From assembly GCA_020137815.1 (NCBI GenBank), contig CM035356.1:7874001-7938000 (forward strand): a DNA stretch of 64,000 nt, given 5' to 3'. Positions 50,301 through 53,300 of this stretch are shown here, one piece after another (the first letter of the stretch is position 1; every line of letters begins with the position of its first letter). The translations under genes and the position numbers were made by a program. The stretch is from Hormiphora californensis. Lineage: Eukaryota > Animalia > Ctenophora. The notes beneath the pieces were generated by a model, which ran no database searches, was not told the origin of the DNA, and worked only from the letters and a program-made list of their open reading frames with translations.

Positions 50301-53300
50301 AGGTATAGACAGAGTTCTCAACTGTGTAACGTATACAGAGATGGAGCAGTGCTATCTAAGGTGTACAAGAAACAGTGGGAAAAACAGCAAGCCCCTACAG
50401 GCACAGGTGTGATTGATCTCCAAACATCCTTAGAAATGGATCTGAAACGTTGAGTCTGTTTTTTGTCTGAAAATTCAACTTGTTGTAACCCCTCATCTAT
50501 CTTGTTCCACAGGCGATTAAAAAGTTCTCAGACTGTCATCTGGTCCGGGTTGGTCAGATAAACTCTGATAGGTTTGTGGCAGTGGCCCAGGAGAGTAGCA
50601 TCAGTCTGTTGCTGATCGGGGAACAGGGCTCCCTAACAATACATACCTTTATAGACACTGAGGACACGTGTAGTTCTCTTATATTCTGTACAGGTGAGGA
50701 ACACATGCCAAACTATTATAGCACCCTGTATTGTTTGTTTAAACAAACAAACTCCCCATTTTACTTATCAAAATATAAATATTTTTACATGGAAATAATA
50801 TAAAAGTAATTAATCTCTTCACCAGGAATGCTACTGACTTCCACCAAGAAGTTCTACAAAGTAGACCCGGTCAACCAGACCCTCTACCATTTCCTGGATC
50901 CCAATGATAACAGCCTCGCATTCTACGCCTATGCCGCGGTTCAGAGGGGTGTCCTGCCTATTGGGCTGGTGCACCTGTACGACACCGAGGAGGTCTTGTT
51001 ATGTTACCGGGAAATGGGTGTCTTTGTGAACAGAGAGGTAGGTGTTACCGGGAAATGGGTGTCTTTGTGAACAGAGAGGTAGGTGTTACCGGGAAATGGG
51101 TGTCTTTGTGAACAGAGAGGTAGGTGTTACCGGGAAATGGGTGTCTTTGTGAACAGAGAGGTAGGTGTTACCGGGAAATGGGTGTCTTTGTCAACAGAGA
51201 GGTAGGTGTTACCGGGAAATGGGTGTCTTTGTGAACAGAGAGGTAGGTGTTACCGGGAAATGGGTGTCTTTGTGAACAGAGAGGTAGGTGTTACCGGGAA
51301 ATGGGTGTCTTTGTGAACAGAGAGGTAGGTGTTACCGGGAAATGGGTGTCTTTGTGAACAGAGAGGTAGGTGTTACCGGGAAATGGGTGTCTTTGTGAAC
51401 AGAGAGGTAGGTGTTACCGGGAAATGGGTGTCTTTGTGAACAGAGAGGTAGGTGTTACCGGGAAATGGGTGTCTTTGTCAACAGAGAGGTAGGTGTTACC
51501 GGGAAATGGGTGTCTTTGTCAACAGAGAGGTAGGTGTTACCGGGAAATGGGTGTCTTTGTCAACAGAGAGGTAGGTGTTACCGGGAAATGGGTGTCTTTG
51601 TGAACAGAGAGGTAGGTGTTACCGGGAAATGGGTGTCTTTGTGAACAGAGAGGTAGGTGTTACCGGGAAATGGGTGTCTTTGTCAACAGATAGGTAGGTG
51701 TTACCGGGAAATGGGTGTCTTTGTGAACAGAGAGGTAGGTGTTACCGGGAAATGGGTGTCTTTGTGAACAGAGAGGTAGGTGTTACCTGGAAATGGGTGT
51801 CTTTGTGAACAGAGAGGTAGGTGTTACCGGGAAATGGGTGTCTTTGTGAACAGAGAGGTAGGTGTTACCGGGAAATGGGTGTCTTTGTGAACAGAGAGGT
51901 AGGTGTTACCGGGAAATGGGTGTCTTTGTGAACAGAGAGGTAGGTGTTACCGGGAAATGGGTGTCTTTGTGAACAGAGAGGTAGGTGTTACCGGGAAATG
52001 GGTGTCTTTGTCAACAGATAGGTAGGTGTTACCGGGAAATGGGTGTCTTTGTCAACAGAGAGGTAGGTGTTACCGGGAAATGGGTGTCTTTGTGAACAGA
52101 GAGGTAGGTGTTACCGGGAAATGGGTGTCTTTGTGAACAGAGAGGTAGGTGTTACCGGGAAATGGGTGTCTTTGTGAACAGAGAGGTAGGTGTTACCGGG
52201 AAATGGGTGACTTTGTGAACAGAGAGGTAGGTGTTACCGGGAAATGGGTGTCTTTGTCAACAGAGAGGTAGGTGTTACCGGGAAATGGGTGTCTTTGTGA
52301 ACAGATAGGTAGGTGTTACCGGGAAATGGGTGTCTGTGTGAACAGAGAGGTAGGTGTTACCGGGAAATGGGTGTCTTTGTCAACAGAGAGGTAGGTGTTA
52401 CCGGGAAATGGGTGTCTTTGTCAACAGAGAGGTAGGTGTTACCGGGAAATGGGTGTCTTTGTGAACAGAGAGGTAGGTGTTACCGGGAAATGGGTGTCTT
52501 TGTCAACAGAGAGGTAGGTGTTACCGGGAAATGGGTGTCTTTGTGAACAGAGAGGTAGGTGTTACCGGGAAATGGGTGTCTTTGTGAACAGAGAGGTAGG
52601 TGTTACCGGGAAATGGGTGTCTTTGTGAACAGAGAGGTAGGTGTTACCGGGAAATGGGTGACTTTGTGAACAGAGAGGTAGGTGTTACCGGGAAATGGGT
52701 GTCTTTGTGAACAGAGAGGTAGGTGTTACCGGGAAATGGGTGTCTTTGTCAACAGAGAGGTAGGTGTTACCGGGAAATGGGTGTCTTTGTGAACAGATAG
52801 GTAGGTGTTACCGGGAAATGGGTGTCTTTGTGAACAGATAGGTAGGTTCGACAACTTTTGGGTCTTGATGGTCCTCCAGGCAAGCCAGGTTTGGTTATAA
52901 ATACAACCAAACAAACATTTTCTCAACAACCCCCTCATTCAGGGCAAGAGATCAAGAGCACACGATATACAGTGGGGGAGGACACCAATAACCTTCGAAT
53001 ATCGGGCTCCCTTCCTCTTTATCTCCCATGTCAACTGTATACAGGTACATGTCATCACTCAGCTCCATGTGGGTGGTCGAGGGATCTTTCTTTTCGAGTT
53101 AATTTGCGTGTTTCTTTGGCCAAACTTTTAGTAGAACATTTACTATGCGGTCTATCAGTTGGTGTCTGTTTTAAAGGTTGACAAGATACCTAAAACTTTT
53201 CGTATATCGTCTTATTTTGATTTATCATTAATTTTCAGCATTTTTTCAGAATTTTTTGTCGGCTAGAAAAAAATTCGAAATAGGGGGTCTACCGATATTG

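What the first reader, a model, noticed from the sequence alone, without database searches (positions are those of the whole stretch)
51003..52847. 45 tandem copies of an exon end plus its 5' splice donor inside citron kinase
Seen: the 41-bp unit is the last 35 coding nt of a CNH exon plus GTAGGT, so the intron opens with ~44 near-identical decoy donors with identical exonic context. Reading past the first donor hits TGA at 51068-51070, so only the first donor gives protein. Each unit also has AG|GT. Inference: either strict first-come (co-transcriptional) donor choice, a copy-number-tunable NMD switch, or recursive/ratchet splicing; also matches the model of intron growth by duplication of AGGT proto-splice sites.
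Basis: partly seen in the sequence, partly recalled or inferred. Interest (0 to 1): 0.85.

Follow-up and report, generated by a model that had tools for sequence, protein, structure and literature searches.

The report
Comb-jelly splice-donor minisatellite in citron kinase
In a comb jelly's citron kinase gene, the last 35 bases of one exon plus its splice signal are repeated 45 times into the next intron, a likely recent example of a repeat type already known from lancelets and human genes such as F7, and the cell likely uses the first signal and mostly ignores the rest.

Summary
51003-52847 is 45 x 41 bp. Each unit is the last 35 nt of a CNH-domain exon plus GTAGGT, in an intact ctenophore citron kinase gene. 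Every donor after the first crosses TGA at 51068. It is no assembly artefact: runs of two samples show unit depth tens of times above the flank. A close relative shows the same donor followed by sequence like the post-array intron, with no large amplification. An orthologous transcript joins 51037 to 52943. So a likely 101-nt intron was inflated to 1905 nt, probably recently. Recursive splicing is unsupported: unit AGs score below all 35 real acceptors. Intron gain is rejected because the intron pre-exists. This is a new member of a known class: amphioxus 'mirages' and the human F7, CBS and 6-16 junction minisatellites. The scan has already noted many such repeats on other pieces of this genome. 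Donor choice in the carrier species was not observed. The locus is a good test of first-come against intron-proximal donor selection. Interest 0.3.

The parts
51003..52847 (+). Tandem array, 45 x 41 bp; unit = last 35 nt of the exon + GTAGGT; five recurrent or single variants interspersed
   Evidence: read depth
50826..51037 (+). Citron kinase CNH-domain exon, 212 nt, ends in phase 0; its last 35 nt are unit 1
   Evidence: Pfam CNH, tblastn and spliced alignment to Bolinopsis P0001; 5' junction seen in RNA contig X8, 3' junction in orthologous contig X10
51038..51043 (+). Authentic 5' splice donor GAG|GTAGGT (donor 1), the only donor giving an open frame
51068..51070 (+). In-frame TGA in unit 2, reached if any later donor is used
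51079..52847 (+). 44 pseudo-donors at 41-nt spacing (39 GAG|GTAGGT, 5 TAG|GTAGGT in units 17, 25, 32, 44, 45)
51038..52942 (+). Host intron, 1905 nt; 101 nt without the 44 extra units
52848..52942 (+). Unique, likely ancestral part of the intron with a typical acceptor (matrix score 13.8)
   Evidence: relative X7 shows similar letters directly after its donor
52943..53044 (+). Next CNH exon ([12 protein letters not shown]…)
27115..54882 (+). Citron Rho-interacting kinase-like gene, 39 modelled introns, open for 1952 codons (5' start and last boundary approximate)

Best explanation
This is a minisatellite whose first 41-bp unit spans the exon-intron border of a comb-jelly citron kinase gene; it likely arose recently as a neutral tandem duplication that was then amplified, and splicing likely uses the first donor while the 44 copies stay mostly silent. 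Shown: unit anatomy, gene, frame, stop in unit 2, presence in two samples, junction position in an orthologue. Inferred origin: one 41-bp duplication in a 101-nt intron (1 nt of microhomology at the break), then slippage or unequal exchange that spread a few variants through the array. Inferred splicing: donor 1 is transcribed first and closes a 212-nt exon, so first-come U1 capture and exon definition favour it. Donors 4 and later would make exons of 335-2016 nt, longer than any of the 38 internal exons of this gene (max 273). Any leak to donors 2-3 would carry the TGA upstream of further junctions and would likely be removed by nonsense-mediated decay, which makes the array cheap to carry.
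For: Anatomy. Real in two samples. Recent: organism B (X7, most laid contigs 90-99% alike) has a contig ending at the donor followed by TCAACCAACTTT, close to the window's post-array TCGACAACTTTT; its depth over the unit bin is 383 against 103-197 in the four exon bins before it, whereas X1 shows 20,875 against 76. Homogeneous array: 21 differences in 1845 nt; all four combinations of the two common variants occur (30/10/3/2), which points to exchange between units. Gene intact for 1952 codons through donor 1; an upstream intron is spliced in a 99+% alike RNA contig (X8). Exon sizes 57-273 nt. Precedent: in F7 only the most upstream of identical donors 37 nt apart is used, with up to 12 repeats (PMC1557585, parts 1, 3, 4 of 6 read). 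Amphioxus mirages are reported not to disturb splicing (PMC3087553 and PMC3902484, passages).
Against: No RNA from the array-bearing species covers the junction: the one X8 contig stops at 50927. X10, although filed under the same species label, differs at 82 of 418 laid bases and is an orthologue. [quoted passage not shown] This gene has short introns (median 211 nt, 16 of 39 at most 150 nt), where intron definition could favour donor 45 (inference). The X7 loose end is one contig, 12 letters, and could be the end of a short array. 6-16 and CBS do use the next two pseudo-donors.
Confidence: 0.8

Rival explanations
1. Leaky, copy-number-dependent allele: downstream or intron-proximal donors take a substantial share of splicing, the products carry the TGA and are decayed, so array length sets citron kinase dose, as a mildly harmful burden or as a selected rheostat.
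For: Every later donor gives a stop with three modelled junctions further downstream. Pseudo-donors score the same as donor 1 (8.9, above 20 of 34 real donors). Intron-proximal preference at similar spacing in human extracts and cells. The two 3'-most units carry the weaker TAG|GT form (6.3), chance 0.010 given 5 of 45, a post-hoc test on terminal units. X1 depth suggests alleles or copies beyond 45.
Against: F7 choice did not change with repeat number. No large array in the close relative. No donor-usage or expression data. Depth cannot show polymorphism: X5 and X6 of one sample differ about twofold in the unit bin relative to flank.
Confidence: 0.13
2. Recursive (ratchet) splicing: donor 1 splices to the AG ending a later unit's exon copy, regenerating an identical exon-GTAGGT junction, so the array is removed stepwise.
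For: Geometry allows it: AG|GT in each unit would regenerate the exact donor. Five units have the YAG form TAG|GTAGGT. Definition of 5' ratchetting from PMC4829307 passages.
Against: All six unit AG contexts tested score -7.3 to -16.0 against 0.9-19.9 for 35 real acceptors. They carry 7-9 G in positions -25..-4 against 0-3 in 39 of 39 real ones, and pyrimidine fraction 0.35-0.47 against 0.53-1.0. The main site is GAG, seen in 0 of 39 acceptors. A CAG lies 4 nt upstream and would shift the frame. Introns of 1.5-5.7 kb elsewhere in the gene show that this length is tolerated.
Confidence: 0.04
3. Assembly artefact: one or two copies inflated by the assembler.
For: No contig spans the array; exact copy number unverified.
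Against: Unit contigs at 54-65 times flank depth in X1 and at least 39 times in X6 from another study; recurrent interspersed variants.
Confidence: 0.02
4. Intron gain in progress by duplication of an AGGT proto-splice site (Rogers model).
For: Units contain AGGT; the model is discussed for mirages (PMC3087553).
Against: The intron pre-exists: the relative has the same donor and similar intron start, and the real acceptor lies in unique sequence 95 nt past the array. Units lack acceptor context.
Confidence: 0.01

Closest known systems
Human F7 IVS7 37-bp VNTR (PMC1557585; parts 1, 3, 4 of 6 read)
   Same: First unit spans the exon-intron border; identical pseudo-donors at about 40-nt spacing follow the real donor.
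   Different: F7 unit has 4 exonic + 33 intronic bp and 5-9 copies; here 35 exonic + 6 intronic bp and 45 copies, so each pseudo-donor has the full exon-end context. F7 donor use was measured; here it was not. Host is a ctenophore with short introns.
Human 6-16, CBS IVS13, lamin B2 and PDGF junction minisatellites (seen only as summarised in the introduction of PMC1557585)
   Same: Reiterated donor in the intron; 6-16 has 25 pseudo-sites, CBS 15-20 repeats.
   Different: 6-16 and CBS also use the two nearest pseudo-sites; here any such use hits a stop.
Amphioxus 'mirage' minisatellites in Adh3, globins BflGb6/BflGb9, troponin C, PGBD5 (PMC3087553, PMC3902484; passages read)
   Same: Tandem copies of an exon-intron boundary, units 10-160 bp, retained splice signals, invertebrate host; BflGb9 duplicates an exon 3' boundary.
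   Different: More copies (45 against 3-6 in BflGb6); length polymorphism and unaffected splicing are reported there but untested here.
Recursive splicing ratchet points (PMC4829307, passages read)
   Same: Juxtaposed AG|GT that would regenerate a donor.
   Different: No pyrimidine tract, GAG rather than YAG in 40 of 45 units, intron only 1.9 kb.

Membership tests
Junction-spanning minisatellite ('mirage' / F7-type) | Head-to-tail repeat whose first unit spans an exon-intron boundary | tested here: met
Junction-spanning minisatellite ('mirage' / F7-type) | Unit of minisatellite size (10-160 bp in amphioxus, 37 bp in F7) | tested here: met
   41 bp; ranges
Junction-spanning minisatellite ('mirage' / F7-type) | Copies keep the splice signal | tested here: met
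   GTAGGT in 45 of 45 units
Junction-spanning minisatellite ('mirage' / F7-type) | Repeat turnover (variants shared between non-adjacent units) | tested here: met
   four haplotypes of positions 26/33; A19 in units 30 and 41
Junction-spanning minisatellite ('mirage' / F7-type) | Length variation between alleles | tested here: inconclusive
   X1 depth 1.7-2.1 times expectation, but contig depth is unreliable at that level; no large array in organism B
Junction-spanning minisatellite ('mirage' / F7-type) | Regular splicing from the most upstream donor is maintained | not testable with these tools
   no RNA of the carrier species over the junction
Recursive splice site | AG|GT preceded by acceptor-like pyrimidine tract | tested here: not met
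Recursive splice site | Intermediate junctions or lariats inside the intron | not testable with these tools
   only contigs available
Intron gain by AGGT tandem duplication | Intron made of duplicated exon sequence and absent in relatives | tested here: not met
   relative has the donor and similar intron start; acceptor lies in unique sequence
Regulated alternative-splicing/NMD switch | Alternative product has a premature stop upstream of later junctions | tested here: met
Regulated alternative-splicing/NMD switch | Conserved between species (criterion recalled, from no call) | tested here: not met
   no large array in organism B (one relative only)
Regulated alternative-splicing/NMD switch | Measurable, regulated use of the unproductive donor | not testable with these tools
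   no suitable RNA run

The most novel reading that the evidence does not exclude
The array is a copy-number rheostat on a cytokinesis kinase: 44 donors identical to the real one, at a spacing (41 nt) on the threshold where intron-proximal donors start to win, divert a length-dependent share of citron transcripts to decay, and the weakened TAG|GT donors next to the acceptor are selected dampers. With the many similar arrays in this genome, junction repeats would be a genome-wide expression-tuning layer in a comb jelly.
Probability: 0.08. Interest if true: 0.7.

Novelty: new member of a known kind. Interest (0 to 1): 0.3.

Why it matters
As a class it is known. Its value is as a natural experiment: 45 donors with 35 nt of identical exon context, 41 nt apart, where only the first gives protein, in an early-branching animal with short introns. 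Two published rules disagree on the outcome (upstream wins in F7; intron-proximal wins from 45 nt). Exclusive use of donor 1 would indicate that first-come or exon-defined donor choice works outside bilaterians. It also shows intron growth by about 19-fold (101 to 1905 nt) between close relatives. For annotation, such arrays make spliced aligners ambiguous.

Tried and rejected
(1) Whole genome: none held, so no genome-wide count of my own. (2) Homologue search with the focal exon found 0 of 7 candidates; the C1 exon found 1 of 29 (Bolinopsis). Taxon rests on that single hit; genus not tested. (3) RNA structure masking pseudo-donors: strand folding gave z -4.1, but that shuffle destroys the repeat. 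Against arrays of shuffled units z is -1.0 to -1.3 (33 of 300 as stable at 6 units); the unit ranks 9th of 39 donor-spanning 41-mers; donor 1 is predicted no more open than the copies. Rejected. (4) Clustering of the C variant: 4 adjacent pairs, p 0.32; none. (5) Unit elsewhere in the window: no 14-mer match outside the array. (6) X8 RNA does not reach the junction; X9 laid 1 record, a low-complexity match, uninformative. (7) The +4 alternative donor TAG|GTGTTA scores 3.2, above only 2 of 34 real donors; minor. (8) Synonymous bias of copies: 12 of 21 differences are the one synonymous change GTG>GTC, which also removes the read-through TGA in that unit; the other 9 are missense or nonsense. 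One recurrent site proves nothing. (9) Donor matrix used 34 of 39 donors (focal and 4 doubtful dropped), acceptor matrix 35 of 39 (4 doubtful dropped); both are crude. (10) Literature: PMC10078293 passages added nothing specific; PMC8316553 abstract only. Searches listed no paper on junction minisatellites in ctenophores; one search showed 15 of 28 hits, none opened; the library lacks most subscription papers; supplements were not read.

Full report
Observation. The window holds a 41-bp tandem array at 51003-52847, 45.0 copies, 98% matches. In register there are 45 full units, 26 identical to the consensus, with 21 differences at five positions. Positions 1-35 of the unit are the end of exon 50826-51037 and positions 36-41 are GTAGGT. 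Reading past donor 1 meets TGA at 51068-51070, so only donor 1 keeps the frame open.

Gene and organism. The exon and its neighbours tile the Pfam CNH profile in order (4 of 8 exons hit CNH). The only homologue found for the C1-domain exon is citron Rho-interacting kinase-like of the ctenophore Bolinopsis microptera, 73% identical (1 of 29 candidates). A spliced alignment to that protein gives 39 introns, median 211 nt, and picks 51038-52942 (1905 nt, phase 0) without ties. About four other boundaries are doubtful. The model is open for 1952 codons. The host is a ctenophore; the genus was not tested.

Is it real? Public runs were found with the left flank (10 listed, 6 holding half the words or more). 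Laid on 49640-51084, X1 (possibly the source sample) has flank depth 75.6 and unit contigs at 4120-4943. X5 and X6 (second sample and study, with four flank differences from the window in X5) also pile up on the unit. X1 ratios are 54.5-65.4 where 45 units predict 26.7-38.3. So the array exists and may be longer than assembled, or the flank figure is a half depth; contig depth cannot decide this.

Age and junction. Organism B (X7; 79 contigs laid, 52 of them 90-99% alike) shows a loose end behind 51043 that resembles the window's first post-array letters, and only 383 depth in the unit bin against 103-197 in the preceding exon bins. It has one or at most a few units. X10, a 2023-nt contig guessed to be RNA and about 80% alike, skips the modelled introns and continues after 51038 with 30 letters matching 52944-52973 at 27 of 30 by my reading. 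This fixes the junction in an orthologue, not in the carrier species. X8, a 99+% alike RNA contig, confirms the upstream intron 50694-50825 but stops at 50927. Inference: a 101-nt intron was expanded by 44 units after the split from organism B; loss in B is not excluded.

Mechanism of origin (inferred). The break has 1 nt of in-register microhomology (sequence), fitting a single tandem duplication. Variants recur in non-adjacent units and all four combinations of the two common ones occur, as expected from slippage and unequal exchange.

Mechanism of splicing (inferred). Pseudo-donors equal donor 1 in score (8.9; five at 6.3), and structure does not distinguish them. What differs is position. 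Donor 1 is made first and closes a 212-nt exon; donors 2 and 3 give 253 and 294 nt, and donor 4 onwards exceeds by far the largest of 38 internal exons (273 nt). In human F7, identical donors 37 nt apart are resolved to the most upstream, whatever the repeat number up to 12 (PMC1557585). U1 with the upstream donor stays tied to the polymerase in human cells (PMC8316553, abstract only). Against this, duplicated strong donors go to the intron-proximal site from about 45 nt (PMC3413131 passages), and this gene has many short introns. I put first-donor dominance with NMD clean-up of any leak at 0.8. NMD in ctenophores is assumed from general knowledge, not tested.

Rivals. Recursive splicing fails the acceptor test: unit AGs score -7 to -16 against 0.9-19.9, are G-rich and mostly GAG. 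Intron gain fails because the intron is older than the array. A copy-number NMD rheostat stays open at low odds; the only hint is the weaker TAG|GT form in the last two units (p 0.010, post hoc).

Comparison with what is known. It works like, and meets the tested defining features of, junction-spanning minisatellites: human F7, 6-16, CBS, lamin B2, PDGF and amphioxus mirages. Two features (allelic length variation, undisturbed splicing) were inconclusive or untestable. It differs in degree: more copies than any example in the passages read, and a mostly exonic unit. Earlier unchecked notes of this scan report many such arrays on other pieces of the same genome and none near this place. In this window I found 1 of 39 citron donors duplicated and a donor-like 20-bp array in the ST13-like gene. 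My searches listed no paper on this in ctenophores, within the limits of the library.

Verdict. Real; new member of a known kind; likely neutral; useful as a test case. Interest 0.3.

Noticed in passing
window 58829-59275: Intron of an ST13/Hip-like gene (name from my reading of the peptide, no call) holds a 20-bp x 19 array starting 14 nt after the donor; 18 units carry AAT|GTGAGG, close to the real donor AAT|GTGAGT (scores 5.3 against 6.0). A second, more degenerate decoy-donor array.
   Followed up: partly
window 1606-2167: Four tRNA-Cys(GCA) genes in a 159-bp tandem array, within what reads as an intron of a RUVBL2-like gene.
   Followed up: partly
window 44479-44634 and 49380-49634: Intronic minisatellites abutting citron splice sites without copying them: 29/15/40-bp repeats 3 nt after a donor; a 14-bp x 18 array ending 10 nt before an acceptor.
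   Followed up: partly
window 23922-26711 (+) and 34277-37099 (-): Two open frames of about 930-940 aa that read like endonuclease-reverse transcriptase LINE elements (recalled, no family search); the second lies in citron's 5.7-kb intron next to a 24-bp x 25 array.
   Followed up: no
window 56151-56953 and 60788-61774: Long inverted-repeat elements: nested arms of 157 and 156 nt (97-100%) inside an LSM3-like intron, and a foldback element with 10-bp sub-repeat arms of about 260 nt.
   Followed up: no
window 15377-16312 (+) and 13084-14178 (+): A single-exon 311-aa frame that reads like a seven-helix receptor (recalled impression) and a 364-aa low-complexity frame.
   Followed up: no
run X10 laid on window 49924-51038: A run filed under the same species label as X1 differs at 82 of 418 laid coding bases, so the label or the contig likely belongs to another ctenophore.
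   Followed up: no
window 4359-4957: 63-bp x 9.5 intronic-looking array, 97% matches.
   Followed up: no
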